A stretch of DNA of 64,000 nt from Leucoraja erinacea (Eukaryota), in NCBI RefSeq assembly GCF_028641065.1, contig NC_073408.1, positions 12,710,001 through 12,774,000 of the forward strand. Reading direction: 5' to 3'. How positions within the stretch are numbered: position 1 is the stretch's first letter; every line of letters begins with the position of its first letter. The notes under the pieces are model-generated. The model was not told the origin of the DNA, did not search any database, and saw nothing but the letters and a program-made list of their open reading frames with translations. The translations under genes and the position numbers were made by a program. Shown here piece by piece: positions 3,345 to 62,502 of the stretch.

Positions 3345-4036
3345 TAAGGTAGACACAAAATGTGGGGCAGGAGAGAAGGAATGGGTGACGTTTCTGGTCG
3401 AGACCCTTCTTCAGACTGATGTCGGGTGTGGGCGGGACAGAGATAGAATGTAGTCAGAGACAATAAGACTGGTGGGAGAACTGGTAAGGGATGGAGAGAG
3501 AAGGAAAGCAAGGGGTATTTGATGTTAGAGAAGTCAATGTTCATACCGCTGGGGTGTAAGCCACCCAAGCGAAATATGAGGTGCTGGTCCTCCAATTTGC
3601 GCTGGGCCTCACTCTGACAATGGAGGAGACCCAGGACAGAAAGGCCAGATTGGGAATGGGAAGGGATGTTAATGTGCTGAGCAACCGGGAGATCAGGTAA
3701 GTTAAGGCGGACTGAGCTGAGGTTTTCAGCGAAACGTTCGCCGATATACAGGAGTTGACACCTGGAACAGCGGATACAGTAGATGAGGTTGGAGGAGGTG
3801 CAAGAGAACCTAAAAGGAGTCCTTGGATGGAGCAAGGAGGGAGGTAAAGGGACAGGCGTTGCATCTCCTGCGGTAGCAGGGAACAGTACCTAGGTTCTGG
3901 GGGTGGTTTGGGTAGGCAGGGACGAGTTGATCAGGGAGTTCCGGAGGGAACGGTCTCAGTGGAAATCAGAAAGGGGTGGAGATGAAAAGATATGGCCAGT
4001 AGTGGAATCCCGTTGGAGGTAGCAAAAATGTTGGAC
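3345..4036 (-). mobile_element. Penelope-like element, GIY-YIG endonuclease fragment plus terminal repeat
   Basis: ORF 3344-3835 reads FSCTSSNLIYCIRCSRCQLLYIGE...PVAQH...RKLEDQHLIFRLGGLHPSGMNIDFS, a GIY-YIG-type domain of Penelope elements. It is followed by the ctgaagaagggtctcgacc.gaaacgtc terminus. Confidence 0.85.
3387..3414 (-). ncRNA. Minimal hammerhead ribozyme-like core in Penelope terminus
   Basis: Minus strand CTGAAGA-AGGGTCTCGACCA-GAAA-CG-TC gives CUGANGA / stem II / GAAA / palindromic ACGU stem III / UC. There is one stem II mismatch. Confidence 0.6.
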
Positions 4037-4330
4037 ATTTCGAGGGCCATAGGACATAGGTTTAAGGTGAAGGGGAAAAGACATAATAGGATTTTGAGGG
4101 GGTAACTTTATCACACAAAGGGTGGTGGGTGCATGTAACAAGCAACCAGAGGAGGTAGTTGAGGCAGGAACTATCACAAAGTTTAAGTAACAGTTATGGA
4201 TAGGTCAGGTTTAGAGCGATATGGACCAAACGCGGGCTGGACGGACTAGAGTAGCTGGGACTTGTTGGCCTGTGTGGGCAATTTGGTCTGAAGGGCCTGC
4301 TTCCACACAATATTGCTCCGTGATTCTATG
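4037..4330 (+). mobile_element. CR1/HER1-type LINE 3' end
   Basis: 'ggacataggtttaaggtgaagggg...aactttatcacacaaagggtggtgggtgcatg' and tail 'ctgaagggcctgcttccaca...tgattctatg'. Confidence 0.8.
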
Positions 4331-5420
4331 CTCGAGTAACTCAGTGGGGCAGGCAGCATCTCTGTAGAACATTGATAGCTGAGCTTTTGGGTTGGGACCC
4401 CTTTTCAGACAGATTGTGTGTTGGTGGTGGGGGATGGGAAAGAAAGCTGGAAGAGAGGGGCAGGAACAAAGCATGGCAGATAATAAGTGAACACAGGCGG
4501 GTGGGGGTGGGGGGGGGGGGGGGGGGGGGGGGTTGATATGCAGATGATTGGTAAATACCAGGGATGAAAAAACAGATGATGTGAGACTAGAGGATTGAAG
4601 AGTTGTGCATTGTGGAGCCAAAGGTAGGAATGTAGTTGGATGGGGGAGAGGGGAATATGTGTGAGTCCAGTGGGGCACAGGGAAGGGGTGGGGATGCAAA
4701 CAAAAGGTGGGGGAAGGATGGAGTGTTTGTTGGAGGTTACCTAAAGTTGGAAAATTCAATGTTCATACCGTTACCCAACTATCACAAGCTACCCCAAGCT
4801 ACCCAATTGGAATTTGATATGCTGTTCCTCCAGTTTGCTTGTGACCTCACTCTGCCAAAGGAGAAGGCCCAGGACAGCATGGGAATGGTTAGCAACGGGG
4901 AGATCCATTCGGCCTTGACAATGAGTGTAATTGTTCAGCGAAGTGGTCGCAGCGTCTGATCTGTGATGCTTGGTCTCGCCAACGTAAGGGATGCCATATA
5001 CAGCTGATGAGGTTTGAGGAGGTGCATGTGAACATCTGTCTCCACCGGAAGGAATGCTGGGGTCCCGAGATGGATGTAAGGGAAGAGGTATAGGGACAGG
5101 TGCAGGATCTCCCATTGTAGCAGGGGTAAGTACCTGACGTAGTTTAGATGGGAAGGCATGAATGAACCAGGGAGTTGTGGAAGAAACCGGTTCTGCGGAA
5201 GGCAGAAAGGGGTGTGGTGGGGAAGATGTGAATGGTGGTGGCAGAAATGTCAGAGAATACTGTTTTGGTTAGTGGAGCGAAAGCTGAGGACCATGGAAAC
5301 TTCATCCTTGTTCATGGAGGGGGAGAGTGAGATTAGATACAGAGGAGACACAGGTGAGGGATCCATCTATGATAGTAGGGGGACACCACTTTTACTAAAG
5401 TAAGAACTCTTCTGTGATGT
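4331..5420 (-). mobile_element. Decayed Penelope-like element
   Basis: ORF 4789-5115 contains YVGETK...DLPVANH...KLEEQHIKFQLGSL, with a terminal-repeat-like segment at ~4335-4410. Confidence 0.8.
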
Positions 5421-5832
5421 CCTAAATATGACCATGTATAATGGTGCCTGCACCTCATATTTTCCATTGATGTGTTTTGGATCATTTACATGATGGCTCA
5501 AATTATGCATTCTGATATGGGCGGTGATGTCTCAGAAGAATTATGTTTATCCTGGGCAGACATCAGAAAGATTCCTCTATAATTATCACAATCAGAAATC
5601 TTCTTTCATGACGATTGTCATCATTACAGCTTATCTGCAATGCTCTCTCTTCTAATTAGATATGGAAAATGAGGTAATTGATTTGTTTTTGGAGTGTTTC
5701 TTGCCATGTTTACTACTTCAGCAGGATTTCGTCTGATCCAGACTCTTGTTTTCAGTTGTTGCATATCCTTTTAAACCACCTGCTAAGCGTGGTTATGATG
5801 GGGTTGAATCATGAATCAAGCAACAGAATAAT

Positions 5833-6125
5833 TTAGTTTAGTTTAGAGATACAGCGTGGAAACAGGCCCTTCTGCCCACCGGGTCCATGCCGATCAGCGA
5901 TCCCTGCATATCCTACACACACTGGGGACAATTAAAAATATATATATTTACCAAGCTAATTCTGTTTGGAGGTACGTATTTGTAATGTGGGAGGAAACTG
6001 AAGATCTCGGAGAAAACCCGCGCGGTCACGGGGAGAACGTACAAACTCCGTACAGACAGTATCCTTAGTCGGGATCAAACTCGGGTATCTGGCATTGTAA
6101 GGCAGCAAATCTATGCTGTGCAGTG
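5833..6125 (-). mobile_element. tRNA-derived V-SINE (HE1-like)
   Basis: tRNA-like head with B box (gagtttgatccc on minus), V-domain-like 'tctgtacggagtttgtacgttctccccgtgacc', CR1-like tail and (ctaaa)n end. Confidence 0.85.
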
Positions 6126-7239
6126 GTAAATATTGATTAGTCATAACTGAATAGGTTAATATAAATGTATTCTGGGATTTTTAACTATTTTTGGAGTCCA
6201 GTTTCATAATCCTATTCATCCTATTCATTCCTCTGAATCTGGTCTTAACATTACTCTGAATCTGGTATATATCTGGTATATATGTGTTTTTTGGGGTGCA
6301 ACTCACAGCTTTGCTGGTACTGGGTCAGTTCTTGGTTTTTGCATTATTGACGAGTGGGGGAGTCCTGGTAAGGAAAATAATTCGAACATTCTATGGTTAG
6401 AGGGAACATGTCTAACATCATGGAGTTTGCCATGTTTTGGGAGTAATGGCATTCTTGAGCTTTTGAAACCGTCATGGTACTGTCCTATCTATTGGGATAA
6501 TGGGGTACTCCTATCTGTTCATATAATGACTAACAGAATTGAAAGTGTCTCGCACTTAAGAACTATTGGGAACATTCCTAGGCAGAATTGAATGCAGAAT
6601 TCTAAATTTCCACCAGGGAGAGCGTGGTAAATAAATGGAAGATGATTATACCATGAATTTACAGTGCTGCTCTACTTTGTGTGGAACATAAACACTGGCT
6701 TTGACTAGTTTGGTTGAATGCCTTGTAGCTGTATGGATATTCTGTGCTAAATGCACTTTGAACATCACTTGTTTAGAAAAAACAATTCTCAATACACAAA
6801 TTGGTATCGAACCAAAGCCTTGCCCAGTCTTTTATTATACCAACAAAATGTGTTAACCATCTGAACCACAATGAAAGCAAGATTATAAAACATTTATCAG
6901 AATGCACCATGAAAAATTGGGAAGACATTTATAAGACACATGAACAGTGTCAATCCAACCATCAAAGCAAATATTTGCAACATGATATTAAATTGGGAAG
7001 TGATATTAGTTAAATAGAAAAATAATCTTGTATTTAATAAATTATGTAGTTTTCTTAAAATTTCAGAGGCAGAAACCCCTGGAAAATCTACATAACGACA
7101 TACATATGTCTTGAAATGTAGTTTATCATAAACATTTTCAAAACTTAATAGCTCTTGAATTTTCTTTTTTTCTGAAATCTTCTCTCCGGCTTTCACTCCC
7201 CCCCCCAGTCTTACCCATTGCAATGCTTAGCCTGTGCTT

Positions 7240-7680
7240 TGCAGTTGCCTGTCACTTTAATCCTCGCCCCCCCCCCCCCTCGCCCACAACCTCCCCCCCA
7301 TCATTACATTTAGCCTCTGCCTTTGGTTTCATACGTTGCTTCAATGGTGCCCAAGTGGATGTGAAGAACAGCACCTCAGCTTCCATGTGGGTATCTTGCA
7401 ACCTTCAAGATTTGATGCTGAATGTAAGAATTTCAGGTGTCTAGGTTTTTTTCCCCGAGTTACAGCCGTTCCTTTCTGTTTCATTTTATCTCCCAGAACT
7501 GCGCTTCTTAAAAAATATTGTCTTGTCTTTAGTACATAGATTATTTCTGTTCTTTCCACATGCCCCACTTCCCTGCAGCTTATAACATACTTATTTACTT
7601 GTTTTTCCAGTTCTGAAAGAAGCTGCTTGACCTCAAACATTGACTATCTGCTGTATTTTAGATGTCTAACATCAACAGTT
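7240..7680 (+). mobile_element. Old Penelope-like fragment
   Basis: Translated pieces AVACHFN and EEQHLSFHVGILQPS match the GIY-YIG C-terminus. A decayed ctgaaagaag...aaacattg terminus lies at ~7612-7642. Confidence 0.65.
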
Positions 7681-8189
7681 CTTTGCGCCAATTATATTTG
7701 GATAGTTCACTTTCTCTCCCATTAAAGAGAATGCATAGTTTATCACAGAATAGTGCAGTTTTAGAATAGAACATCATTGCTTATACTGTTCAGTTAAGGA
7801 AATAAGTATAATTGGCCATCTAACCATTCCAGCTGCAAACCATGAACGATCTATTTGAAACAAGTAATTAAGCACAGATTTTGGCCCTTATTTGTTGATT
7901 GACAGTGAAAGGCGATTAACTTTTGAAGGTAGTTACTGTATTCCTATTTCAACAAAATCAGTTTGTGCCGAATGGCCTAATTCTACTCCTATCACATATG
8001 ACCTTGCGCCTGTTATACTATTCAGTAAGATTCTACCTGGTCTTTACTTCAGTTTCACTTTGCTGCATTAAACCCACATCTTTTGATCTAAAAATATAAA
8101 ATCTATAGGTTGCCCTGCCTTTTTTTGTGGACAAATTGGTGCCAGTACACATCAATTAAAAATGGAGCTACATTTATCAATAATATTTT

Positions 8190-8565
8190 ACCTGAACTCC
8201 CGGTGGCTCAGCACTTCAACTCCCCCACCCATTCCCAATCCGACCTCTCTGTCCTGGGTCTCCACCATTGCCAGAGTGAGCAACACCGGAAATTGGAGGA
8301 ACAGCACCTCATATTCCGCCTGGGTTGCTTGCGACCGGATGGCATGAACGTTGAATTCTCCCAGTTTTGCTAGCCCTTGCTGTCTCCTCCCCTTCCTTAA
8401 CCCTCGAGCTGTCTCCTCCCATCCCCCCGCCCTCGGGCTCCTCCTCCTCCCTTTTTCCTTCCTTCTCCCCCCCCCCCCCCCCCAAGGGTTTCCCCAACGT
8501 CGCCTATTTCCTTCAGTCTAGAAGCTGCACCCACTGGTTTCTCCAGCATTTTTGTGACCCCGATC
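8190..8565 (+). mobile_element. Penelope-like 3' fragment
   Basis: ORF 8110-8373 contains ELPVAQHFNSPTHS...RKLEEQHLIFRLGCLRPDGMNVEFSQF. Confidence 0.85.
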
Positions 8566-10154
8566 TTCCAGCACGTTCCTTCGAATATTTTACCTCAGTT
8601 TTCCCTCCTTCTGATTTTGACGAGCAATTTCTAATTTAATAAACTAACAACTAAAAAGTGAAAAACTGAGTTAAAATTCTAAAAATTTAATCTAGTTTTT
8701 AACTTTTAGAGTACCATCATACAAATAGCACTGGATATATGTAAACAAATACCATATTGATCTGTGGAAGCAATGCCGAGATCTTGATTGCAGTGGTCTT
8801 GCTATGGAGCAGTCTACATTGGAGATGGAGCATCTACATTGCAGATGGACCATCTGCTTCATTTTTGTCACCTCTGATGGCTGTTAAGTCCACCAAACAC
8901 TGAGCTAAGGTTAATATTTTATACTTGTTGATGTGTAACTGCACTATTTTAGTGGCAGTGGGGTAGGTTCTTCCTCAGCTGAATGGAAGTTATCAAAATG
9001 TGTCGCGGTGCTCTTTAGGCATACATCAAGGCAATTCTTTTCAGTGATAGTGGGTAATTAAAAGATTTCCTCGAAAGGTAATAGTGACGACTGGCCTATT
9101 GATTATTGGCAATGAGGATTTTGTGAAGTGATATCTATTTTATTGCTTTTGTTCTTTGCCTTGGAAAGACCAGTAATATTTTTGATAATCCTAGATTTAA
9201 GCTTGGTGCGTTAGTGTAAATTTCCATTAAACCAGATTTTTGAAGGAGTAGAGTTGCCACATTGAGCCTGTTGTTGCTTGAACAAGTTGGAATGAGCGGT
9301 GGAGTGGTATCAATTAGTTACAAAAGATGATTATTAAATCTGTTTATTCGATTTAGGAAAATATTGAATTTTGACACTTGGGAGGCAAATAATGGTAGTT
9401 AAAATGAAAATATAACATTCCTATCTGTTATATTACCATGCAGAGATTTGCTGGCTTTCAACTTCAATTGCCAATAATACGATACATTTATACAATTAAA
9501 TTTTTTTTCTTTTGGGATTTAGATAACTACACAAGTTGTACTTTCAGTCAAGGATATGATCAGTCAAAACTACAATGTAAAATTGTTTGTATTTTTAGTT
9601 AAATATTATGAAATATATTTGTCTATGTAGCTATATAATTGGTTTGTAACCCATTGAAATCCTCCGGAGTGCAAATTGGACCAATAAATTTGAAAACTAA
9701 TTTTGTTGTCACCATTCTGTCAGCTGCTAAATGCTTAAAAATAAAGAGGAAACTAACAGACGCCGAGTCTGTGATTAAATATTGAAATACAATTTTGATT
9801 TTGAGGGGATTTGCTTTTATCTTGCACATCTTGGAACTTGCCAAAGTACAACATCACCAATTAATGAAGAAAATTGTCACCGCTTGTTTTCACGAAACGG
9901 CCTCTTGAGCAGCAATGAGACCAAGCAATTTTAGTGGTGCTTGAGTCTTCTTAAATTGTGACCATATAATTGAATTGAATGTTGTAAATATAAAAAACAA
10001 TCATGTTATTGAGAGCTGTGGGGAATTTGTACAGAAGCGATGAGTTGATCAGCCATAATTATATGGATTGAGGGGCTGAGTTACTCTCCTATGTCCCTAG
10101 TTTAGGTTAGATTTTATTTTGCCATATTAATTCAAATTTATTAAGATTTATATT

Positions 10155-10460
10155 TAAGTTTAGTTTGAATATACAATGAGGAAACAGACCGTACGGCCCA
10201 ATGAGACCGCGCCGACCAGCGATCCCCGTACACTTGCACTATCCTACACTCTAGGAACAATATACAATTTTTATCACAGCCAATTAACCTACAAAACTGT
10301 ATATCTTTGAGTGTGGGATGAAACTGGAGCAACCGGGGCAAACCCATGCGGTCACGGGGAGAACATACGAATTCCATACAGACAGCACCTGTAGTCAGGA
10401 TCGAACCCGGGTCTCTGGCACTATAATGCAGCAACGCTACCTCTGTGCCACCGTGTTGCC
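10155..10460 (-). mobile_element. tRNA-derived V-SINE (HE1-like)
   Basis: Same layout as 5833-6125. Head 'ggcaacacggtggcacagagg...cccgggttcgatcctg' has A and B boxes. Confidence 0.85.
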
Positions 10461-10905: not shown

Positions 10906-10910
10906 CTTTA

Positions 10911-12036
10911 ACTATATCACTAAAAGTCTGACCTAGACCACTTCCTGTTCTGTATACTGATTTTAGAAAAAACGCTGCCACTTACGGCTGTGATTTTTGG
11001 CCATCGTACTCCCCTCTGCTGTGCAGGACAAGGGGATATTTCCCATCGATGGATAATAAAAGAGTTATTAGTGTTTAAAAAAATGTTGAGATTCTCTCTC
11101 CTGAAGGCCACGCCCCTTCCGCAGAGACTATAAAACCGGGAAGTGTTGAGTGCCTCAGTCAGTCTCTGCAAGATGGGGGAGCGAGAGGGTCACGTCTCTC
11201 AGTCTGAGCTGTGAATAACACTGAACACATGTCTACTAAACTGTGAGTGGTTTTACTGACCTGTCAGTGCCCTTAATGTGGTTTGATAATATAGTTTGGA
11301 AATGCTAAAGCTGTGTTGCCTTTGGTTTGGAAATGCTAAAGCTGTGTTGCCTAATGCTAAAGCTGTGTTGCCTAATTAAAGTTGCCATGCCTAATTAATG
11401 TTGGCTTGCCTTATTAAAGTTGCCTTGCCTAATTAAAGTTGCCTTGCCTAATTAAAATTGCCTTGCCTTCTATATAATTAAAAGTCTAATCTTGATCACT
11501 TTCTGTTTACGCTTTATGTTCATTTTAGAAAAAAACGCTACCACGTATCTTACTCGGAGTCCTCCTCCGTTCATCAGGTGCTGAGGATTTTTCCCATCGA
11601 CGAAAAATAAAAGAGTTATTAGTGTTTAGAAAATGTTGAGATTCTCTCTCCTGTCAATCATGCCATGAAGGCCACACCCCTTCTGGTGTGAGGGGGGTGA
11701 GGGACTATAAAACCCAGAAGTGTGGGCATGGCTGAGTCTCTGCAAGATGGAGGAGGGAGAGGTCATGACTCGGTCTTTAGTGGTCTTGCACCCTGCTTGA
11801 AATGGTATGAAACTGCACTTGAATTTGGTGGCCTTGCACCCTGCTTGAAATGGAATTTCAAGGAATAGCCGTGAGTCAACTGCCAGCTCACCAGCTGTGA
11901 GTGAGTGAGCTGCCAGCACAACGGGCTTGAGTGACTGAGCCGCCAGCCCAATAATCCATTCGGCCCACAATGTCCATGAAGGCCCTCTGGAAACCAGTCC
12001 CTTCAGCCCACAACACCCATACTAGCACACCAGAAA
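10911..12036 (+). mobile_element. Non-autonomous Helitron with two tandem 5' ends, 3' end apparently truncated
   Basis: The Helitron-type start TCTATATAATTAAAAGTCT is at 11469, with a diverged copy (actatatcactaaaagtct) at 10911. The ~280-bp modules are homologous. It has internal minisatellites and no TIRs or TSD. Confidence 0.65.
11290..11468. repeat. Minisatellite inside Helitron (aatgctaaagctgtgttgcct / taattaaagttgccttgcc units)
   Basis: Directly visible tandem 19-21 bp units. Confidence 0.9.
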
Positions 12037-24509: not shown

Positions 24510-25607
24510 AACATAGAAACAGAGTACAGGAAGAAGCCCGTCGGCCCATAATGTTCATGCTGAATATGATCCCAAGTTAAACCAATCTCCTCTGTCCGAA
24601 CATGATCAATATCCCTTCATTTTCTGCATTTCCATGTGCCTATCTAAAAACATCTTGAATGCTATAAACATATCTGCTTCCAGCACCACCCGTGGCAATG
24701 TGTTCCAGGCACCCACCACAATTAGTGTAAAACGAAATACTTGCTCCGCACAACATCTTTAAATTTTGCCCCCTCTCATCTTAAAGCTAGGCTCTCTAGT
24801 CTTTGACATTTCTACATTGGGAAATGATTCTGACTGTTCACCCTATCTATGTCTCTCTTAGACATAGGTTTATATACTTCTATCAGGTCTGCCCTTGGCC
24901 TCTGGCACTTCAGACAAAAACAATTCTAGTCTGTATAACCTCTCCTTATAGCTAATACCTTCTAATCCAGGAATTTTGTTGAACCTCTTCTGTCCCCTGT
25001 CCAAAGCCTTCACCTCCTTCCTGTAATGGGGCAATCAGAATTAAATACAATACTCCAAATAGGCCTAACCAAAGCTGCAGTATGGCCTCCTGACTCTTGT
25101 ATTCAATGCCCCAAGTCATTCCTTCTCTCCAGAGATGCTGCCTGTCCCGTTGAGTTACTCCAGCGTTTTGCGTCTACCCTGACCAATGAAGGTTTACAGA
25201 GTATTTACTTTCTTTACAACTGCATCTACTTGTATTGCACTTTCAGTGACCTATGGACAAGGACCCCGAGATCCCTCTGTATATCAGTGCTGCTCAGAGT
25301 CTTACCATTAACTGTATACATTCCCACTACATTCAACCTCTCAAAATGCAACACCTCATACATACTCAGATTATACTGCATCTGCCATTTTCCCCGTCCA
25401 TATCTGATCGATATCCTGCTGTAAATTTTCTTCACTGTCTGCAACTCAACCAATTTTGGTGTTGTCACATATTACAAATTTATCTGCTCATCACGGTGGA
25501 ATGAACAAAATGTGACATATTGCTTAAAATTTAACGCATTTTAACTGTGGTGAATTATCATTGTACAATTTGGTGTTGTCTGCAAACTTATTAACCAACC
25601 CATTTAC
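24510..25607 (-). mobile_element. CR1 LINE 3' fragment with internal insertions
   Basis: (tttctatg) tail at ~24510. ORF 25226-25468 contains KWQMQYN...EVLHF...YTVNGKTL...QRDLGVLVHRSLKV. Carries a Penelope-terminus piece (~25116-25180). Confidence 0.85.
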
Positions 25608-28731: not shown

Positions 28732-29080
28732 GTGGGTGATGGAGGTAGGGTGGGAAGCAGTGTAGTCCAGATAGCCATGGGAGTCAGTAGGCTTGTCGTA
28801 GATGTGAGTCAGTAGTCGGTTACCTGCGATGGAGATGATGAGGTCTAGAAACCCACTGACTCCCACGGCTATCTGGACTACACTTCTTCCCATCCTGCTT
28901 CCTGTAAGGACTCTATCCCCAACTCCCAATTCCTCTGTCGACGCCGCATCTGCACCCAGAATGAGGTGTTCCACACCAGGGCATCGGAGATGTCCTCATT
29001 CTTTAGGGAACGGGGGTTCCCCTCTTTGACTATAGATGAGGCTCTAACCAGTGTCTCTTCTATAATGCTCTCACTCCCCA

Positions 29081-29112
<32 letters not shown>

Positions 29113-29975
29113 ACTCGTTACAAGGACAGTCCACCTTACCCTCGCCTTCCACCCTACCAGCCGTCACACACAACAGATAATCCTCCGACGTTTTTGCCAC
29201 CTCCAACGAGATCCCACCACTGGCCACATCTTCCGATCTCCTCCCCTTTCTTTCCACTTTCCGCAGAGACCGCTCCCTCTGTTACTCGCTGGTCAATTCG
29301 TCCCTTCCCACCAAAATCACCCCCTCCCCTGGTACTTTCCCTTGCAACCCCAGGAAATGTTACACTTGTCGCTTTACATCCCCCCTTGACTCCATCCAAG
29401 GACCCAAGCAGTCTTTGCAGGCGAGGCAGAGGTTCACCTGCACCTCCTCCAACCTCATCTATTGCATCCGCTGGTCTAGGTACCAACTGCTCTACATCGG
29501 TGAGACCAAGCGCAGCATTGGCGATCGCTTCACCCAACACCACCTCCACACAATTCGCATTAACCAATCTGATCTCCCGGTGGGTCAGCACTTCAATTCC
29601 CCCTCCCATTCCGAATCCGACCTTTCTGTCCTGGGCCTCCTCCATGGCCAGAGTGAGCCCACCGCAAATTGGAGGAGTAGCACTTCATATTTTGCTTGGG
29701 TAGTTTACACACCAGAGGTATGATCGTTGACCTCCAGTTTCAGGTAGTCCTTGCTTTCCCCTTCCTTCCCCTCCCCTTCCCAGCTCTCCCAAAACCCACT
29801 GTCTCCGCCTCTTCTTTCCTTCTTCTCGTCCCCCCCACCCTCACATCAGTCTGAAGAAGGCTGTCGACCCGAAATGTCACATATTCCTTCGCTCCATAGA
29901 TGCTGCCTCACCTGCTGAGTTTCTCCAGCATTTTTGTCTACCTTCGATTTTTCCAGCATCTGCATTTCTTTCTTA
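28732..29975 (+). mobile_element. Penelope-like element (RT C-terminus plus GIY-YIG) with inverted 5' segment
   Basis: PTDSHGYLDY, FHTRASEMSSFFRERGFP and FTCTSSNLIYCIRWSRYQLLYIGETKR...PVGQHFNS. Hammerhead-like core at 29851-29878. Segment 28732-28850 is in the opposite orientation. Confidence 0.9.
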
Positions 29976-30419
29976 AACATATACATACCTATGTATCTAT
30001 TGATAGGTCTTATGTCTCTTCCTGAAAGTCCACTGCAGTTCAATTTCTGTAATTTAAGCAAAAAAGTGCTTTAATCCATATTTCAGACCATGAGATGCTC
30101 TTTGTTAACATTCTCTGCGTTTTAGAGCTTGCGAAGATCTACATAGACTGCTCAATCTATACTTGTGCAAGTGTAGACATGGCCATGAGAATAGGAGTCA
30201 GAATGTATGGTATTAATTGTGGTGGTGCTGACATCTACCTTCCTGTCTCTCATAACATTCCTGCACTTTTCTGCGTGTGCTCCTCTCTTGTTGCTGCTTA
30301 TGCAACATTTCTGTGTCCCTGGTGAATGTCCTCGAATCTTAATACCGTCCTGAATGCTCTTACTCTGTTTTGACTGTTCATGGGCCAGGCATTCCCAGTA
30401 TTTCATCAAGGAGGCTTTC

Positions 30420-31650: not shown

Positions 31651-31884
31651 AAACAAGTATTTTAAAGATAGAAACTTTCTTGAAAAAAGACACAAAGTGC
31701 TGGAGTCAGCTGGTCAGGCAACATCGCTGGACAACGTGGATAGGTGACGTTTCGGATCAAAAGTTCTGTTAAACTTTCTTAACTTAGATTTTGTTTTCAG
31801 AAAGTTATCTATAAGTATTGGATTGCTTTGAAATACTGATGTCAAAGTATTTTGGAGTAGAGGTATTAAGACAATTGTTGGTAT

Positions 31885-32120
31885 GTGTAAGAAGGAACTG
31901 CAGATGCTGGTTTGAACTGAAGATAGACACAAAAAGTTAGAGTAACTCAGCGGGACAAGCAGCATCTCTGGAGAGAAGGAATGGGTGACGTTTCGGGTCT
32001 GTAGAAACCCGAAACGTCACCCTTTCTTTCTCACCAGAGATGTTGCCTGTCAAGCTGTTACTCCAGCTTCTTGTGTCTATCTTCGGTTTAAACTAGTATC
32101 TGCAGTTCCTTCTTACACAC
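31885..32120. mobile_element. Palindromic (head-to-head) Penelope-terminus element
   Basis: Arms gtgtaagaaggaactgcagatgctgg... and ...tatctgcagttccttcttacac, with centre gtgacgtttcgggt-ctgtagaa-acccgaaacgtcac. Confidence 0.85.
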
Positions 32121-33705: not shown

Positions 33706-35095
33706 TAGAAACATAGAAAAATACATGCAGGAGTAAGCCATTCGGCCCTTCGAGCCAGCACCGCCATTCAATATGATCATGGCTGATCATCCACAATTAA
33801 TATCCTGTTCCTGCCTTTTCTCCATATCTCTTGGTCCCAAAGAGCTAAATCTAACCCTCTCTTGAAAAAGTCCAGTGAGTTGGCCTCCACTGCCTTCTGT
33901 GGCAGAGAATTCCACAGATTCTCAACTCTGGTTGAATAAATTTCAGTCCTGAATGGCCTACCCCATTATTCTTAAACTGTGACCCCTGGTTCTGGACTCC
34001 CCCAACATCGGGAACATTTTTCATGCATCTAGCCTGTCCAATCCTTTAAGAATGTTACATTTTTCTCTAAGATATCCTCTCATCCTTCTAAATTCCAGGG
34101 AATACAAGCCCAGTCGACCCATTCTTTCATCATATGTCAGTCCTGCCATCCCGGGAATTAACCTGGGGATTATGCTGCACTCCCTCAATAGCAAGTATGT
34201 CCTTCCTCAAATCAGGAGACCAAAATTGCGCATAATACTCCAGCTGCTGTCTCACCAGGGCCCTGTACAACTGCAGTAGGACCTCATTGCTCCTAAACGC
34301 AAATCCTCTCGCAATCAAGGCCAACATGCCATTAGCTTTCTTCACTGCCTGCTGTACCTGCATGCTTACTTTCAGTGTTCAAGAAGGAACTGCAGATGCT
34401 GGAAGATCGAAGGTACACAAAAAAGCTGGAGAAACTCAGCGGGTGCAGCAGCATCTATGGAGACCCTTCCTGTCTGCCAACCAAGAAGGGTTTCGGCCCG
34501 AAACATCACCTATTTCCTTCGCTCCATAGATGCTGCTGCACCCGCTGAGTTACTCCAGCATTTTTGTGTACCTTTTGCTTACTTTCAGTGACTGATGTAC
34601 AAGCACACCCAGGTCTCGTTGGACCTCCCCTTTTCCTAATCTGACACCATTCAGATAATAATTTGCCTACCTGTTCTTGCCGCCAAAGTGGATAACCTCC
34701 AATTTATCCACACTATACTGCATCTGCCCACTCACCCAACCTATCCAAGTCACATAGCATCCTCATCGCAGTTCACACTGCCACCCAGATTTGTGTTATC
34801 CTTAAACTTGGAGATGTCACATTTAATTCCCTCGTCTAAATTATGAATATATATTGTAAATAACTGGGGTCCAGGCACCGAGCCTTGCGGCACCCCACTC
34901 ACCACTGCCTGCCATTCTGAAAAGGACCCGTTAATTCCTACTATTTGCTTCCTGTCTGCCAAACAGTTCTCTAACCAAGTCAATACCCTACCCCCAATAT
35001 TCTCTTGTGTGGGACCTTGTCAAAGGCTTTTTGAAAGTCCAGATACACCACATTCATTAGCTCTACCTTATCCATTCTACTTGTTGCATCCTCAG
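33706..35095 (-). mobile_element. CR1 LINE 3' ~1.2 kb (RT fragment)
   Basis: ORFs WLENCLADRKQIVGINGSFSEWQAVVSGVPQGSVPGPQLF and QQAVKKANGMLALIARG, plus a (tttctatg) tail. Confidence 0.9.
34378..34575. mobile_element. Palindromic Penelope-terminus element inserted in CR1
   Basis: Inverted arms flanked by a perfect 15-bp TSD tgcttactttcagtg (34363-34377 and 34576-34590). Confidence 0.85.
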
Positions 35096-44530: not shown

Positions 44531-44844
44531 ATGTGTAAGAAGTCTGAATGAGGGTCTTCTATCCAGAGGTGCTGCCTGTCAGTTACTCCTGCATTTTGTG
44601 TCTATCTTTCGAACAAAAGTGCAAGGTGCCTTAAACCATCTGAAACGGAACCCACCATATACCCGTCAACAATAAGGTACTGTGAGGTTGTGGCTGCGTG
44701 CTTGGGAGGAATTGTAAGCAGCAAGGGGGAAGGTGAAAAACAAAGTGCTAGAGGATATCAGCGGGTCAGGTGACACATCTCTGAAGAGAGGACAGACTAT
44801 GTTTCAGATCGCGACCTTTCTTCAGATCAGGAAGAAGAAGGTAA

Positions 44845-48820: not shown

Positions 48821-49816
48821 GATAGATAGATAGGTTTTATAGTGTATCTGTTTCTGTAACTAATTTCATCATACAGTGGACAGAAGAATAAAAGTTCACT
48901 TCTTGCCCATCAAATGCCAACTATTTCTAATAATTTGAGGCTGTTTTTCAACTCAAATAAATTGACCAAATCTTTGTGATGTTGATTAGATTATTGGATG
49001 CATATTCCTGAGGCCAGATTTGTGATTAGGGATGCAAGCATCAGTCTCACTTGATAGAGAATTAAATTATATTACATTAAATAAATCTGGAATAAAAACG
49101 ATAACTTATGTCAGTCATGATGTCATGAAACTGCTGGACTGTAAAAGAAAAACAGTTTCAATAATGCCAGATACACTCTTTGCCTTGTCTGCCTTTTCTG
49201 TGTTGGCTCTTTACTGCCCTCTGTAAAGGCCTAATAAACTGCTGGGTTGTCAAGAGGGCAATTCACGATTTCATTTCTAAGGACAATGAAGGTTTAAGGA
49301 ATGAATACCTGGGATGCTCCCAGTGATGCCCTGCAAATAAATTAAAAACAAAATTTGATGAGTATAGGGGAATGTTGTTGACTTAACGCGCAGTTTATTT
49401 TAAGAAATGTGGATGTGTGCAAATCTAAAATCTTGAAAATGTAGCATGAAACATTAACCCTGTTACTCCAGCAGATATTGCCTGCTCTGCTGAGTATTTC
49501 TATTTTATGTTTCGACCTAATTTGTCATCTTAGCTGCAAAATATTTTAATATAAAAATCTATTAAATTTTGAAGTTTCTTTTATGGAGATCATTTGAACT
49601 TTATGGCATCATTTTCACTTATTCTCAATCTTGCAAAACCACTGTAATTTAAAGTCAGCAGCAGGCTTGTTTAATGAAAATCGCAATAAAACAGTCCTGA
49701 AACTTGACTTTGAAGTGGCACAAGTCTTTCTTCTGTCTGATGTAGTTTTCCATTTAAATGAATGTCTGTCAGAGCATCAAATTGCCTGGGGATGCTGCAC
49801 ACTTTATTTTATATTA

Positions 49817-52500: not shown

Positions 52501-52637
52501 GCCTCTTAAAACTTGCCTCTTTAACAAACTTTTATTGTCATCTACTATAATATGATCTGTAGAGTTGTTTGCTGTCACTACTTTGCTGCAACATGAGATG
52601 TTCTTTCTATGTTCAAAGCAATACTGTTCTTGTCAAA

Positions 52638-55500
52638 TACGATACGATACGACACGATAGGACTTTATTTATACCAGGAGGGAAATTAATTTGCCAACAG
52701 TCATAAAAAAACACAATAATACATGAAACATGAAATTAAAGTGACGAGTGGTAAGGCTTTGGGGGTGTGCAAAGATTAAGGGGGGGGTCAGCCTCGGTCT
52801 ACCCCACGACAGAAGGGGGAAGAGTTGTAATGTTTGGTAGCCATAGGGAAGAAGGATCTCCTGTGGTGTTCTGTCTTGCATCTTTGTGGAACCAGTCTGT
52901 TGCTGAAGGTACTCCTCAGGTTGACCAGTGTGTCATGGAGAGAGTGCTGTGTTGTCCAGGATGTTCCACAGTTTGAGGAGCATCCTCCCCTCCAAGACAA
53001 CCTCTGCCCCCAGGATGGAACCAGCCTTCCTGATGAGTTTGTTGATCCTGTTAGCGTCCGCAGCTTTTGATCTGCTGCACACGGCAGCGAAGAAGATGGC
53101 ACTGGCTACCACCATTGGTAGAACATCTGCAACATCTTATTGCAGACGTTGAAGGAGCGGAGCCTTCTCAAAAAGTACAGGTGGCTCTGTCCCTTCTTGT
53201 ACAGGGCCTCAACATTCCTGGACCGGTTTACTGTCCAGATACACTCCCAAGTGTTTGTACTCCCTGGTAAACTGCCCATCCACACCATTGTTAGAGACAG
53301 GGGACAGGGATGTTCCTCTCCTCCTAAAGTCCACCCCCAACTCCTTAGTCTTGTCAGTGTTGAGCTGCAGGTGATTGGGCCCACACCACTCAAAGTCGTT
53401 GACTGCACCTCTGTATTTAGCTTCCCTCCCCTCACAGATGTAGCCCACAATTGCAGAGTCATCTGAAAACGTCTGCAGGTGACAGGAGGCGGAGTTATAT
53501 CTGAGGTCCGAGGTGTAGATGGAAAAAAACAAGAAAGGAAAGAGGACCATACCCTGTGGGGCCCCTGTGTTGTTCACCACCATGTCCAAGACACAGTTCT
53601 GTAGCCTGACATATTGTGGTCATCCAGTCAGGTAGTTGATGATCCAGGACACCAATGGAGCATCCACCGCATTTTCGTCAGTTTGCTCCCTAGCAGTGCA
53701 GGCCGGATCGTGTTAAAAGCACTGGAGAAGTAAAAAAACCCCATCTTCTTGCGTTTGAGGCAGCAGAGGTTATGTAACGCCCTCCAGGCGCTGTAGCCAG
53801 TTCAATGTGCTGTTGCCGAGGGCCATGAGATCTACCCCTCCACCAGGGGGGGCGGATGACAGCGCAGTCGAAAATGATGTGCTACGCTGCTTGCTGGTCT
53901 GCTCCACACACACAGGCTGCTGATAAAAGCAGCCCCCAGCGTGCATGTTGACGTTGAACTGGCCGACCCCTGTACGGAGCTGGTACAGGGCGACCCACTA
54001 TTTACGGGGCAGGGCGGGGCTATGGTGTTCGGTGCAACAGAGGATTGCGTAGGTCGTGTAGTCTGTTCCCAGCTGGTTCTCCATGCTCCTAATGTGTTGA
54101 AACCGCTCGCTGCGATACCTGCGAGATCCGTCGGAGTGGGACGTAGGCAGCCAGTGATGATCTGCATGGTGTCGTTGAGGATGGCGTCTAGCTTGCTAGT
54201 ATAAGCGCTGCGGCACCATGCTGGGGCGGCATACTCGGCTTTGTACATGAATGCAAGAGCACTGGTTCGGAGAGTGCATGTCCTGGCGCCTCATAACGAC
54301 CCAGCCAGGCAACGCAGGAGGTTGTTCTGCGCCGAGACTTTAGCACAGAGAGCTTCAAGCTGTTGCTTGTAGGTCAGCTGCCGATCTAGTTTCACCCTGA
54401 GGTATGTAGGAAATGGGTTAAAGGGTAGGGGTGACCCATTGAGGTTGACGGTTTGCTGGCGTTGAGCTTTCTTATTGTTCAGGTGAAGGCCATTGTAGTG
54501 GTTTTTGCCACACTCAGTTTTAGTCTGTAGGTCTTCAGATAGCCTGCAACGTTCCATATCCGCCAAAAGCACATCCTCCACGTTTGACCAACTCCTGTCT
54601 GAGTGCAGTAGGGCCAGTTCATCTGCATATCCATACTGGCGCGAGGTTGTGCGTGGCAGATCGCTGATATAGTGATTGAAGAGCATGGGGGCCAGTACCG
54701 AGCCTTGGGGGACTCCGTTTCTTGGGTGTCGCAGTTGGCTAGATGTCCGTCACCGGTCTTGAGTACAAAACTGTAGTTGTCAAGGATGTTGGCAAGGAAC
54801 CGCACTAAATGGAGGTCAGGAATGGTGTGGAGGAGCTTCAAGATCATGCCCTGGTGCCACACTGTATCATAGGCGGCGTTTTACAAAAAACATGACTTTC
54901 ACAATTCTTCTTGCCGTATCCAGGAACCATGGAGCAGATGGATGATGGCATCCTCAGCCCACAACTTTGTTTGGTAAGTGAACTGCAGGGGGTCCAAGTA
55001 GGGTTTAACCAGAAGTGGTAGGTGAGTGAGCACCACCCTCTCCAGGGACTTCATGATGTCTGTAGTCATTGGAGGAGCTGGGGCACGTCCTCTTTGGTAC
55101 AGGAACCAGGCAGGATGTCTTCCATGTCACAGGAACCCTCTCCAGGCTCAGGCTCAGGTTGAAGATGTGCTGTAGTACTGGCTGGCAACTGGCTGGCACA
55201 CGCCTTGAGTACCCTACGGCTGACATCATCGTAACCAGTAGCTTGGCCTGGGTGGAGTCTGCTCAGCTCCTTCCTCACCTGGTCAACAATGGTCAGGCTC
55301 GGGCAAGACGGGGCAGAGGAAGTGGACCAGGGGGATTGAGGGGGAGAGACTGTTGGGAGCATGGGGAAAGGTGGGCAGCGGCCCCACCATCAAATCTATT
55401 ATAAAACAGGTGTAGCTCATTGGCCCAGTCCTGATTGCTTACCCTCCCCAGGCCACTGGTCTTCTTGTAGCCTGTAATGCTCTTCATCCCGCTTCACATC
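52638..55500 (-). mobile_element. Rex1/Babar LINE interrupted by Vingi insertion
   Basis: NTGAPQGMVLFPFLF..YTSDL, FSDDS, LQLNTDKTKEL, KKGQSHLYFLRRL and WKTSCLVPVPK, with a (tatcg)n tail at ~52638-52660. Confidence 0.9.
53743..54878 (-). mobile_element. Vingi/Ingi-like non-LTR retrotransposon, 5'-truncated
   Basis: AAYDTVWHQG, LFNHYISDLP...YADELAL, YLRVKLDRQLTYKQ, AEYAAPAWCRS..T.KLD..LNDTMQIITGCLRPTPT. 3' end caaacgcaagaaga. aaaaaac is present on both flanks. Confidence 0.75.
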
Positions 55501-56024
55501 CCAAATCTTTCATTGACAGTGTCATTGTGGGATCTGCTCTGGTCTACCATTATCAAAGTCAAAATCACAGTCAAATGTATTCGTCACATGCACCCGAAGG
55601 TGACTAGTACTGATGAAAAGAGTAGAATAAACAAAGCAAAGCAACTAACCCAACTCCCAACTCAAGTAGGTACAATGGTTATATTAGTTAACAAATGTTG
55701 GCATTTTCTTAACGGTTATATTTGCTTTCATGTTGCATGGCATCATTTTGAACTCCCTGTTGCCTATGCTTGGCACCCCACAATTGGCCAGTTTAAAAAA
55801 ACAAAACAATTTTGCAGATAACAGCGGAAATGTGAAATGGAAATAGCAGCAGGCCTCTTAGCCCATCATTCAGTAAAGTTATGGTTGATCTTAAAACTCT
55901 ACATCAATTTCTTGCACAAACTTATCTGTAAAATCTCCACCATTTTCATAGCCAATGCTTTCATCTACCTTTGAAAAAAACACATCATTTTGTAACTCTG
56001 ATCAATGGAAAAATACATAATTTA

Positions 56025-56368
56025 CAGTCGGAAGAAGGGTCTTGACCTGAAACACCACCTATTCCCTTTCACTAGAGATGCTGCCTGACTCACTGAGTTA
56101 CTCCAATGTTTTGTGTTTATCTTTGATTTAAAGCAGCATCTGCAGTTTCTTTCTACACATTTTGTCTGCTCCCCACTGCACAATCTCCTTATGGTATGCC
56201 TACTTTGAAGATGTTCTCTTTCCAACGGGTTTTCTGAGTCTGAAGAAATGTCTCAACTCTAGAAGTCACCTATTTCCTTTCACCAGAGATGCCTGACCCG
56301 ATGAGTTACTCCAACATTTTCTGTTTATCTTTGGTATAAACCAGTATCTGCAGTTCCTTCCTACACAT
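56025..56368 (+). mobile_element. Tandem pair of Penelope-terminus modules
   Basis: Two direct copies (~56025-56158, ~56238-56368). Each starts with a decayed c(t/g)gaagaa...gaa..(c/t)cacc core and ends tctgcagtt..ttcctacac. Confidence 0.8.
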
Positions 56369-57560
56369 AATTTACCGTATGATTTTCTCCATACACGGCA
56401 TTATTTTAAGCCCACTGTCTTGATTGTTCCACACCCTGTGTTGTCATAATATATTGTCTGCTTAAAGTAGTTGATTAATACTCTTAAAGAGATTTCTGGA
56501 TTATATTTTAACATAAGTTTCAGGCACAATGTTCTATGTTTAGCCATCCTCGGCCATTTAATCTTTTTATACCTTTCCTTTAATGAACAAGTGAACTTTT
56601 CACCAGTTGACCTGGTTGTCATATATCATCTTTGTGGCTCTGATGAAAAGGGTTTGACTTTCCTGTTTCTCTGTGCAATAAGAAATGTATTGCTGAGTCT
56701 TTGATCAGTGGAGTATATTTCTGCCTAGGTATTTAGATTTACCTAGTCTTCCATACATTACCAGTTTCCCAATGTGAGATAAGCAACAAAGTCAATATAC
56801 CTTATTGTTCTCATGTGTCCTGGATTAATTCTTCTCTCTCCACCGTTTGAAGATTTTGTTTATGTGAGTTTTTGAACCAGTTAGACAAACTTGAATGTTT
56901 ACTTGGTTGAAATGTAAGATCACAAACAATACTCCAAATATACTTTTTCAAAGATCTTGTGAAGTGAAACATTACTTCCTTGTTTTTGTAATCCATCCTT
57001 CTGACAGTAATACCAAGCAGTTTTTTAGTGGCAACTGACTATGGTTGTTTTACTGGATTTATAAATCCTGTTGTGTGTTTGAACTCTTTAATGGAATAGA
57101 AATTGTAATTTACTATGGTCTGAATATGTGTTGGCATGAATGCATACCTGTAATTGGAGAAACAAATGTTGAACACTAATTAACAACTGTTCTTGCAGTG
57201 GAGCTAAAAATAGGGGAATATAGTTCAGTTGTGATAAAGAGTCTCAAACATCACACTGCCTGGCTTGCTGTTTGTTTCCAACGTTTCCTATTTGAGTTTG
57301 CAGGATTTTTGCTAGTCGAGATATGAAGTGATTGGTGCTTGCATGAGATGCGAAAAAGAGGCAAGAAAACATGTACGCATGGACAGATTGATAGAGAATG
57401 TAAGAGAATCATATAGTGAAAAGGTAAAACGCAAAAACAATGGAGATCCTTGTCATGAAATAAATTAGTTTGAGACAAATGTTGGAGGAAGAAAGGATGT
57501 GATGCCAGAGTATCATGTCATGGTGTCAATTTAATCTATAGAGAAGCTGTTTCAAACAAT

Positions 57561-60580: not shown

Positions 60581-61771
60581 CTTGAATATTTCCAAACAAA
60601 ATATTTAGAATAAAAATCACTTGATACGAGTCCTTTCTGTGCTGGACAGGTGCAAAGTTGCAATCTGATACTCCTGCCCCTGGATAATCCATACAGGAAG
60701 CTTGGAACTGATAGTTCCAGTTTTGAGCAGCTGTTGAATATTGTGGCAGGGGGTAGCTACATTGACTGCTGTGGGTACAGCAGATGGTTCAGTAAAGGAT
60801 GCTCTACAAATATTGGCGTGCAACTTGCATCAGGAGCTAAATGTTTTTAGCTTAGTTGTTTCAATCAGTTACCAAAAGTGAAAAGTGCACAACTTCGCCA
60901 TGGTTAGCTGAAATTCGTTTTTTTTTGGAGATGGATTTAATTTGCATCTGAGGAACATTGTGTACGATTGAACCTGTGGCATTGGGAATATCTGAGAAGA
61001 GAATGGACTGTAATAGACACAACGAGAATACAGGAATGATTGTCAATTTATCACATAGCAAATAAAACCACAAGAGATTAAGTAACATGATCTTCACAAA
61101 TTCTTTTTAAATTGTCTTATTTATAAGAGAATGCATTTTCTTTGATAGTTTTTCTCTGACAAACTGTAATTGCCATTTGATTATTTACTCAAGTGCCCAA
61201 GGGTTTTGCCCATGATAATTACTCTAATGGGATACAGGAACAGCATAATTTACATTCTCTTTTCCACATCCTTGAACCTGGAATCAAGGTATTTAGAAAC
61301 TAGATATTTATTTCCATTTGAATAACAGTGAAATTAATTGGGTTGCCAAATTCTTTATTACCTCCTCCACAGGTATGTATTTTTGTTGTATCCAGCTTTA
61401 AGCAAAAATGATGATTGTGTGTCTTATGATTTACCTGAGTTTATCTTGCATTTGGAACTCACTGCATATATATATATATTATTCCTCCAAATAATGGTCT
61501 GGTATATTGATGCTACAAAAATTATCAATAGTTGCAATTTCAATTTGTGTAATTTAATGGAGCAGGAATGCCAATACATTTATTCAGGGTAAGCCTTTGC
61601 TATGCAGTGGTTGCCTTCTTCCACAGTTGCTTATAATCTAGAATGGTTCTTGCAGATTGAAGGGTAACAAATGTAAATCCATGATTAAGAAAGGAGGGCG
61701 AAAGAAGCTAGGAAGTGTAGACCATCTGACCAGTTAATGGGGAAATTGAGAGAAAATGTTTACAGGGCAAT

Positions 61772-62337
61772 AAGCGAGTTCGGTATTCCGACCGCATGCC
61801 CAGGTCCTAGGTCACTCGCCACAAACGATGATTTTGTAAATTTTTACTGCTTTATGCTTCGGTGAGTGAGCAAGATCGTGCTGCTGCGTGGGGTTGGAGT
61901 CCGTGGTCGGGGTTGGGCCCGGGTCTCTGCCGCAGCGGGCGCTGTTGAGTTGCTGCTGGGCCGTCCCCATCCCCTCCTGGGTGTTCCATCCCTGTTCGGG
62001 GTGACCCTGACCACCTCGGGGGGGGGGGGTCTAATGGCGGTTCGGCAGCGCTTGCTGCAACGGGGACACGGGTTAGATCCTGGCTGCGGGTGAGGCGCGG
62101 GTCTGTGTGCGTGCTATATCCTGTCTCCCACTTGCATCTACCCCCTCACTCTCGCTGTTACATCCTGTTCTCCTGCTACCTAGCGCCCCCGTTCCTCAGA
62201 TTAAATATATTTTTACACATAAATTATGCATAAAGATAAGTATGTACAGCCAGCACTTTGTTTGCTTTTTCTTTATGGCGAATGACCTTTGACAAATCCC
62301 ATGATTCCTTGCATTTTTGAGAATACCGAACTCGCTT
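61772..62337. mobile_element. MITE with 17-bp TIRs and AT TSD (ISL2EU/Harbinger-superfamily-like)
   Basis: AT|AAGCGAGTTCGGTATTC...GAATACCGAACTCGCTT|AT. Removing the element and one AT restores a plausible CR1 sequence (gggcaATtagaaat). Confidence 0.8.
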
Positions 62338-62403
62338 ATTAGAAATTACTGAAGGGTCAACTTACATTTAAGGAGAGGAAATCATGTTTGAATACCTGAA
62401 GAA

Positions 62404-62502
62404 TGTCTGAAGAAGGGTTTTGACCCAAAACATTGCCTATTTCCTTTGCTCCATAGATGCTGCCTCACCCGCTGAGTTTCTCCAGCATTTTTGTCGACCT
62501 TT
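62404..62502 (+). mobile_element. Penelope-terminus module inserted in CR1
   Basis: gtctgaagaagggttttgacccaaaacattgcc...ctccagcatttttgtcgacc, flanked by duplicated tttgaatacct. Confidence 0.75.

What the first reader, a model, noticed from the sequence alone, without database searches (positions are those of the whole stretch)
3387..62435. Dispersed family of hammerhead-ribozyme-bearing Penelope terminus modules
Seen: a ~130-bp module recurs about 10 times (3387-3414 minus, ~4385 minus, 29851-29878, ~31745 minus, 31985-32020, ~34482-34508, ~44544, ~44800-44825 minus, ~56029, ~56240, ~62407). The reconstructed consensus CTGAAGA-A-GGGT-CTCG-ACCC-GAAA-CG-TC reads as CUGANGA / stem II / GAAA / loop-less palindromic stem III (ACGU) / UC cleavage site. 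Known: Penelope-like elements carry minimal type I hammerheads with palindromic stem III that are thought to work as dimers. Inference: in this genome the ribozyme-containing terminus also moves without the ORF as a SINE/retrozyme-like unit, seeding many potential self-cleaving motifs into introns. Caveats: no copy here is perfect, most have CpG-type decay, and stem I looks short (gt/ac).
Basis: partly seen in the sequence, partly recalled or inferred. Interest (0 to 1): 0.7.

Follow-up and report, generated by a model that had tools for sequence, protein, structure and literature searches.

The report
Penelope run-off stubs carrying minimal hammerheads
The repeat is the end piece of a very abundant Penelope-like jumping gene and carries an already described kind of predicted self-cutting RNA motif; the copies here are broken, and the lone copies are likely short by-products of copying the start of the element's own RNA rather than a separate ribozyme-driven family.

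Summary
The module is the pseudo-LTR of a 3.9-kb Neptune-like Penelope element (RT, CxxC linker, GIY-YIG). Its consensus is a minimal type I hammerhead of the kind Cervera and De la Pena described, with a 2-bp stem I. Lone copies and head-to-head pairs are true insertions, with 9-17-bp target duplications. Lone copies start 1-6 nt before the CUGA core, seldom at the cut site, and end at two sites about 35 nt apart. They share haplotypes with ORF-attached copies. The best reading is run-off cDNA from the 5' end of the parent transcript, not a retrozyme or an independent SINE. No window copy keeps a complete hammerhead (18 of 318 sampled do), cores decay almost like flanks, and no host gene was found, so 'seeding ribozymes into introns' is unsupported. 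This scan reported the same family and reading before, on other DNA of this and other genomes.

The parts
3335..3420 (-). pLTR module (hammerhead core from 3414; G10.1-C11.1 pair broken; internal deletion) at the 3' end of a truncated Penelope copy
3528..4030 (-). Penelope body remnant (linker and GIY-YIG region) upstream of the 3414 module
   Evidence: blastn to the full-length unit, E 9e-76; translation
3210..3316 (-). old partial module 18 bp downstream of the previous one
4328..4413 (-). decayed module of an older copy with shared upstream sequence; body remnants at 4799-5241
8192..8555 (+). 3' end of a Penelope copy (GIY-YIG end, 3' UTR, module at 8484-8555 with the CUGA arm deleted)
25117..25182 (+). 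lone partial module without the hammerhead part
28741..28851 (-). inverted 5'-truncated piece of the Penelope copy that follows (cause of the chance Rfam hairpin hit)
28845..29979 (+). 1.1-kb 3' part of a Penelope copy: RT thumb, CxxC linker, GIY-YIG (frameshifted), 3' UTR, module with tail; hammerhead at 29851-29878, decayed
31679..31761 (-). lone partial module lacking the CUGA arm; a 10-nt word is shared by its flanks
31884..32120 (.). head-to-head pair of modules, both cores incomplete; no target duplication found
34373..34581 (.). head-to-head pair of the young subfamily, tail on one arm only, 15-bp target duplication
44545..44625 (+). module with an internal deletion through the hammerhead
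44736..44826 (-). old lone module starting at the core; stem III palindrome lost
49445..49501 (+). weak, very old module remnant
   Evidence: E 0.007
56025..56368 (+). tandem: module with tail, about 70 bp of the Penelope 5' UTR and ORF start, second module with tail; 11-bp target duplication; both cores damaged
62404..62505 (+). lone module without tail, 11-bp target duplication, core damaged

Best explanation
The module is the pseudo-LTR of a recently amplified Neptune-like Penelope retrotransposon, and its lone and head-to-head copies are likely run-off cDNAs made from the first 95-135 nucleotides of the element's own uncut transcript. Shown: the module bounds a 3.9-kb RT/GIY-YIG unit, the ORF starts 164 nt after the core, lone copies start 1-6 nt before the core, end at two sites about 35 nt apart and carry target duplications. 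Inferred: transcription starts at the initiator-like TCAGT just before the core. The element's protein binds the first 200 nt or so of the RNA and primes at two internal sites, as shown for the anole element PAc. Priming at the 5' copy of that site runs off the RNA end and gives a lone module. Priming from both target strands gives a head-to-head pair. A jump back into the bound region gives tandems with ORF-start spacers. ORF-bearing copies would come only from priming in the downstream pLTR of a read-through transcript. The hammerhead is probably kept by selection in the master elements, where it would need a partner copy or the protein to fold; in the scattered copies it is a decaying passenger.
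For: Parent: module about 130 bp after the GIY-YIG stop and at both ends of a 3,933-bp unit; about 150 RT matches 98-100% identical with open frames up to 1,085 aa. Context of 318 hits in 664 kb: 111 head-to-head, 11 tandem only, 44 with shared upstream sequence, 90 lone with the core, 62 lone and partial. In 89 lone copies base composition falls to background by position -5. In the first 30 young copies, 14 lone ones start at -1 to -6, 11 are attached and run back at least 113 nt, and 5 are head-to-head. Genome-wide, 2,939 and 1,656 of 15,778 exact young copies break from the parent at -3 and -4. Against that, 468 copies have a purine before the cut-site product, and about 7 of 30 inspected are lone starts there. 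3' ends cluster at +91-97 and +128-130. Target duplications: 15 of 89 against 8 of 882 shuffled; 22 of 38 young lone copies against 15 of 743; 22 of 55 head-to-head pairs against 5 of 323. Junctions vary. Array L196 has units that begin at -2 or 0 joined to ORF positions +201 to +210. Subfamily consensuses vary at 1 of 20 core and stem positions against 17 of 61 downstream, Fisher p 0.026, and the stem change keeps pairing. Literature: internal priming, the tail and a dispensable, protein-assisted hammerhead in PAc (PMC11167929); transcription from an internal promoter in the pLTR (PMC2377424).
Against: No transcript start was observed: the RNA runs show no pile-up of read starts at the module edge, though fragmented libraries would hide one. 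An untemplated cap G is only weakly enriched (38 of 100 and 36 of 100 by my hand count; p 0.03 and 0.015 against base composition; none in the older sample). 62 of 318 hits start inside the module, so ordinary truncation also occurs. One young sub-lineage had 5 lone, 4 head-to-head and only 1 attached copy among unselected copies, which could mean re-copying from lone modules. Arkhipova et al. argued for antisense templates for head-to-head junctions (PMC3846280). Neptune placement rests on motifs, not a tree.
Confidence: 0.62

Rival explanations
1. Barrier truncation: all copies are primed in the 3' pLTR, and reverse transcriptase tends to fall off, or the RNA to be processed, at the edge of the hammerhead fold or the pyrimidine tract before it.
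For: 5' truncation is the rule for PLEs (PMC8557442 passages); body coverage falls steeply towards the 5' end: 23 GIY-YIG, 9 thumb, 2 RT and 1 ORF-start hits in 664 kb with a young probe; the cap-G signal is weak.
Against: The edge is the same in subfamilies with different upstream sequence. Units that hold the ORF start also begin at -2 or 0. The edge coincides with an initiator-like motif. The hammerhead fold is not the predicted stable fold (stem II probability 0.1 or less).
Confidence: 0.17
2. SINE-like family: lone modules carry the internal promoter and priming sites, are transcribed on their own and are re-copied in trans by the Penelope protein.
For: Fixed ends, target duplications and about a million copies; a sub-lineage rich in lone copies; pLTRs suffice in cis for trans-mobilisation in Adineta (PMC3846280 passage); one derived composite with a fixed seam did spread to about 1,800 sites.
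Against: The two commonest young haplotypes are shared by lone and attached copies (11:9 and 6:13). Lone copies lack the ORF-start region that PAc needs for priming (PMC11167929). There is no tRNA, 7SL or 5S head. No lone copy inspected shared carried-along 3' flank with another (seen by eye).
Confidence: 0.15
3. Retrozyme: tandem modules are cut by dimeric hammerheads, circularised and reverse transcribed.
For: The motif is a dimer-type hammerhead conserved across subfamilies; tandems exist (window 56025-56368, L196); pLTR-derived retrozymes are reported in vertebrates, including one chondrichthyan (bioRxiv 10.64898/2026.07.22.740005).
Against: Copies start about 30 nt before the cut site, which a cleaved template could not give. 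Tandems are few and their junctions vary. Most L196 units lack the hammerhead. The active dimer is about 21-24 kcal/mol above the dimer's best fold.
Confidence: 0.05

Closest known systems
Minimal hammerheads in pLTRs of metazoan Penelope-like elements (Cervera and De la Pena 2014, PMC4209133; parts 1-2 of 4 read)
   Same: Type I core, extra base between positions 9 and 10.1, G10.1-C11.1 pair, palindromic 15.2-16.2 with no loop 3, mostly single dispersed motifs, opposite-strand pairs.
   Different: Helix II is 4 bp and helix I 2 bp (closest to the 2-bp helix I of D. virilis). Copy number is far higher (72,915 matches to a core pattern against 4,000-9,000 in coelacanth and Xenopus). The parts read give no fixed 5' start or target duplications for lone motifs.
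EN+ Penelope-like elements, Neptune type: pLTR, inverted 5' copy, 30-40-bp tail (PMC8557442 and PMC3846280 passages)
   Same: RT plus C-terminal GIY-YIG, CX2-5CxxC linker, partial tandems, inverted copies, tail at one end, target duplications.
   Different: In Adineta several solo pLTRs lacked target duplications and were ascribed to recombination or deletion; here lone pLTRs have them and a sharp common start.
PAc, Poseidon of Anolis (Frangieh et al. 2024, PMC11167929; parts 1-2 of 4 read)
   Same: Two internal priming sites that define the tail, both strands extended, hammerhead upstream of the priming sites and not needed for insertion.
   Different: There the ORF starts inside the hammerhead; here it starts 164 nt after the core. 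Run-off lone copies are not described in the parts read.
Non-LTR retrozymes (PMC7229834 passages; bioRxiv 10.64898/2026.07.22.740005, parts 1-3 of 5 read)
   Same: pLTR-derived, non-coding, hammerhead-bearing, 100-300-nt units.
   Different: Retrozymes are tandem arrays with a hammerhead in every unit and make circular RNA. These modules are mostly single or inverted and are copied uncut.

Membership tests
EN+ Penelope-like element (Neptune type) | ORF with RT and C-terminal GIY-YIG | tested here: met
   L207 (1,085 aa) and L206: RVT_1 E about 1e-6 and GIY-YIG E 0.006-0.011, both just under Pfam's cut-offs; the L214 copy is split over three frames
EN+ Penelope-like element (Neptune type) | pLTRs formed by partial tandems | tested here: met
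   module at both ends of a 3,933-bp unit, the upstream copy with its 3' UTR, in L205, L206, L208, L214
EN+ Penelope-like element (Neptune type) | inverted 5'-truncated copy and 30-40-bp tail at one end | tested here: met
   111 of 318 hits head-to-head, tail mostly on one arm; 3' ends at +91-97 and +128-130
EN+ Penelope-like element (Neptune type) | CX2-5CxxC linker before the endonuclease (absent in Penelope/Poseidon) | tested here: met
   C-x4-C-x2-C in L111, L114, L207; definition from PMC8557442
EN+ Penelope-like element (Neptune type) | RT groups with Neptune in a phylogeny | not tested
   no reference PLE RT set was fetched
Minimal type I hammerhead of PLEs | conserved core, base between 9 and 10.1, G10.1-C11.1, palindromic 15.2-16.2 | tested here: met
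   all five subfamily consensuses; 18 of 318 genomic hits and 0 of 17 window hits keep all of it
Minimal type I hammerhead of PLEs | helix I of 4-5 bp | tested here: not met
   2 bp; an extension across a 2x2 loop is predicted to be less stable. D. virilis also has 2 bp (PMC4209133)
Minimal type I hammerhead of PLEs | self-cleavage as a dimer or with the protein | not testable with these tools
   folding puts the active dimer at -6 to -7 kcal/mol against -27 to -31 for the best dimer fold
Non-LTR retrozyme | tandem array with a complete hammerhead in consecutive units | tested here: not met
   21 of 318 hits have a 5' tandem neighbour; the window tandem has both cores damaged; no such array among the 18 TRF rows
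Non-LTR retrozyme | monomeric linear and circular RNAs cut at the hammerhead | tested here: inconclusive
   no read ends piled at the cut site in 4 runs, but these are fragmented libraries
SINE | head derived from tRNA, 7SL or 5S RNA | tested here: not met
   no such Rfam match on any module; the whole unit is pLTR sequence
SINE | own source lineages with diagnostic changes absent from the partner element | tested here: inconclusive
   main haplotypes shared, one sub-lineage rich in lone copies, 70-74 copies only

The most novel reading that the evidence does not exclude
Penelope elements routinely make a strong-stop-like cDNA from the first 95-135 nt of their transcript and insert it. The million lone modules would then map the transcription start, both priming sites and, through template-jump arrays ending at +200 to +220, the RNA region held by the protein. 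This would explain why lone minimal hammerheads flood animal genomes, why active PLEs need a tandem arrangement, and how pLTR-derived retrozyme arrays are born in one reverse-transcription event.
Probability: 0.45. Interest if true: 0.6.

Novelty: new member of a known kind. Interest (0 to 1): 0.32.

Why it matters
The ribozyme and the element class are known, and the window copies are dead. The value lies in mechanism. How Penelope elements transpose, and what their hammerhead does, is still open. This genome holds a recently amplified family with roughly a million footprints. They point to an uncut template, a sharp 5' edge, two priming sites and frequent two-strand priming, all testable by 5'-end mapping and by the published in vitro assay.

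Tried and rejected
Rfam: no hammerhead model hit. A first core pattern with the wrong spacer length was at chance level. Splicing or back-splicing from a donor-like site after the tail to the AG before the core: rejected, 1 exact and 3 one-mismatch junctions in the genome. A uniform MITE-like palindrome family: rejected, junctions differ among 55 pairs. The window tandem as a fixed retrozyme dimer family: rejected, 19 relatives have different junctions. Cap-derived extra G: weak, not relied on. Better conservation of the core in genomic copies: small difference only, 6.4% against 8.3% mismatch at invariant downstream columns, and the selection of near-full copies favours the core. Sequencing runs: no RNA holder listed for 55900-56500. 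RNA runs added by species label were laid; that they are the window's species is not established. Module reads were several- to tens-fold deeper than body reads and came in both orientations, which fits copy number and passive transcription and says nothing on cleavage. Lunse et al. 2016 on dimeric PLE hammerheads was not held, so only its title was seen. No supplements were read; those of PMC4209133 and of the 2026 preprint may list chondrichthyan motifs. No structure prediction or RT tree was run.
Full report
Positions are counted from C3 of the hammerhead core (0); the predicted cut follows +27. The genome is 2.19 Gb. That it is a shark or ray rests on my recall of its other repeats and on earlier scan notes, not on a call.

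Observation. A profile seeded on 30 genomic copies and rebuilt on 664 kb (the window plus 60 arbitrary 10-kb stretches) gives 318 hits, 17 of them in the window, and 0 on reversed sequence. The 301 hits outside the window extrapolate to about 1.1 million module hits. Rfam has no model that hits it.

Parent element. Four window modules sit at the end of Penelope body remnants (3414-, 4408-, 8484+, 29851+). The GIY-YIG region has 110,488 first-look candidates in the genome. A young subfamily has about 150 RT matches at 98-100% identity, with open frames up to 1,085 aa. Full-length copies show module, 3,933-bp unit, module; the upstream module is preceded by its own 3' UTR (partial tandem), and the ORF starts at +164. 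Pfam finds RVT_1 and GIY-YIG, both just under the curated cut-offs. A C-x4-C-x2-C linker precedes the endonuclease, which Craig et al. give as absent from Penelope/Poseidon (passages). The module is therefore the pLTR of a Neptune-like PLE; no tree was built.

The hammerhead. The consensus has the four traits Cervera and De la Pena list for minimal PLE hammerheads: consensus families, a base between 9 and 10.1, G10.1-C11.1 and a palindromic 15.2-16.2. Among five subfamily consensuses, 0 of 10 core, 1 of 8 stem II (pairing kept as U-G) and 0 of 2 stem III positions vary, against 17 of 61 downstream (Fisher p 0.026). Loop II and position 17 vary within what a hammerhead tolerates. This fits selection in master copies, although the same bases may also serve as promoter elements. 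Stem I is 2 bp. The active dimer is predicted at -6 to -7 kcal/mol against -27 to -31 for the best dimer fold, and stem II probability in the monomer is 0.1 or less. The anole element's hammerhead cut only with its protein and was not needed for insertion. In genomic copies the core decays about like invariant flanks (6.4% against 8.3% at non-CpG sites, 26% at CpG). 18 of 318 hits keep core, stem II and stem III; none of the 17 in the window does.

How the ORF-less copies arose. Of 318 hits, 111 are head-to-head, 11 tandem only, 44 share upstream sequence, 90 are lone with the core and 62 lone and partial. Lone copies are insertions, not deletion remnants: target duplications in 15 of 89 old and mixed copies (8 of 882 shuffled), in 22 of 38 young lone copies, 9-17 bp long (15 of 743; 24 of these 38 came from a search that favours lone copies), and around 22 of 55 head-to-head pairs (5 of 323). 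In the window they flank 34373-34581 (15 bp), 56025-56368 (11 bp) and 62404-62505 (11 bp). The 5' edge is sharp. Composition reaches background by -5 in 89 lone copies. The first 30 young copies split into 14 lone starting at -1 to -6, 11 attached reaching back 113 nt or more, and 5 inverted. Genome-wide, 2,939 young copies keep -2/-1 but differ at -3, and 1,656 keep -3 to -1 but differ at -4, while 3,541 match the parent exactly to -11. Starts at the cut site are rare: 468 copies have a purine before the cut product, and of 30 inspected 7 were substitutions, 11 inverted junctions and 12 'starts', of which about 7 are clean lone starts by eye. I had no neighbouring-position control, so a small peak there is not excluded. 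3' ends fall at +91-97 and +128-130, the tail of PLEs, which Frangieh et al. tie to two internal priming sites. Inverted pairs mostly carry the tail on one arm, and their junctions differ.

The window tandem. The spacer at about 56160-56228 is the 5' UTR and ORF start. Its 19 relatives are followed by a second module within 530 bp, at different junctions. Locus L196 holds at least 14 young units of 165-212 bp (one further piece is shorter) that end at +201 to +219 and start at -2, 0, +21, +31 or +44. I read these as template jumps on the protein-bound 5' end of the RNA, with later local amplification possible; this is inference. A splicing origin was rejected.

Mechanism. The edge lies on an initiator-like TCAGT kept by subfamilies with different 3' UTRs. 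D. virilis Penelope is transcribed from an internal promoter in its pLTR (passages). The simplest account is that priming at the 5' copy of the priming site runs off the transcript's end. The steps 'transcript starts here' and 'primed from the 5' pLTR' are inferred. The cap-G test was weak and RNA-seq showed no pile-up of ends. A SINE-like lineage is not excluded: the two main young haplotypes are shared by lone and attached copies (11:9 and 6:13), but one sub-lineage had 5 lone, 4 inverted and 1 attached among unselected copies. Separately, a derived composite with a fixed 34-nt duplication seam matches 1,802 sites, clustered near contig ends in the first 100 listed. Most sampled loci show it among about 67-bp repeats and often inside older modules, and it lacks the CUGA arm. 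So secondary spread of module DNA does occur, but without a whole ribozyme.

Host effect. No host exon was found in the parts tested, so 'into introns' is not shown for this window, and no window copy is predicted to cut.

Novelty. Minimal hammerheads in PLE pLTRs, single and opposite-strand copies, inverted pLTRs, tails and pLTR-derived retrozymes are in print. Six literature searches listed no paper on a fixed 5' edge of lone pLTR insertions or on this family, but most subscription papers, Repbase and all supplements were out of reach. The fixed-edge reading was first suggested to me by earlier notes of this scan and recurs in many of them. I tested it here with my own samples. Verdict: a real, new member of a known kind, with modest interest for what its copy ends say about Penelope transposition.

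Noticed in passing
G000, 1,802 sites; loci L217-L244 (ends of C8, C10, C11): A composite built from module pieces (about 67-bp tandem units around a palindromic block with a fixed 34-nt duplication seam) is dispersed near contig ends, often inside older module copies. It lacks the CUGA arm, and the seam also appears in RNA reads.
   Followed up: partly
L196 (G000:C1:24092402-24095436): At least 14 head-to-tail young units of 165-212 bp (module plus ORF start) with several different junctions; looks like serial template jumping.
   Followed up: partly
L205, L206, L208, L214: Near full-length young Penelope copies in head-to-tail tandems with a period of 3.7-4.0 kb; the N-terminal part of the coding region is long and proline-rich.
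   Followed up: partly
window 28736-28906: The hairpin that gives a sub-threshold Rfam microRNA hit is the inverted 5' truncation of the Penelope copy at 28845-29979.
   Followed up: yes
window 2572-2740, 26759-26850, 33718-33922, 35304-36172, 38355-38897: 3' ends of another abundant repeat, by my recall a CR1-type LINE of sharks and rays.
   Followed up: no
window 5835-6113, 10157-10439, 47478-47762: Three copies of a repeat of about 280 bp, by my recall a tRNA-headed SINE on the minus strand.
   Followed up: no
window 53106-53619 and 53832-54880 (minus): Two decayed non-LTR reverse-transcriptase fragments (RVT_1 E 0.004 and 1e-7).
   Followed up: no
window 11294-11490: 19-bp minisatellite, about 6 copies, inside a stretch with a 70-bp direct repeat at 11013 and 11564.
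   Followed up: no
window 37523-38302, 39880-41842, 50121-50424: Inverted-repeat pairs 60-88 bp long and over 90% complementary, possibly MITEs or DNA-transposon ends.
   Followed up: no
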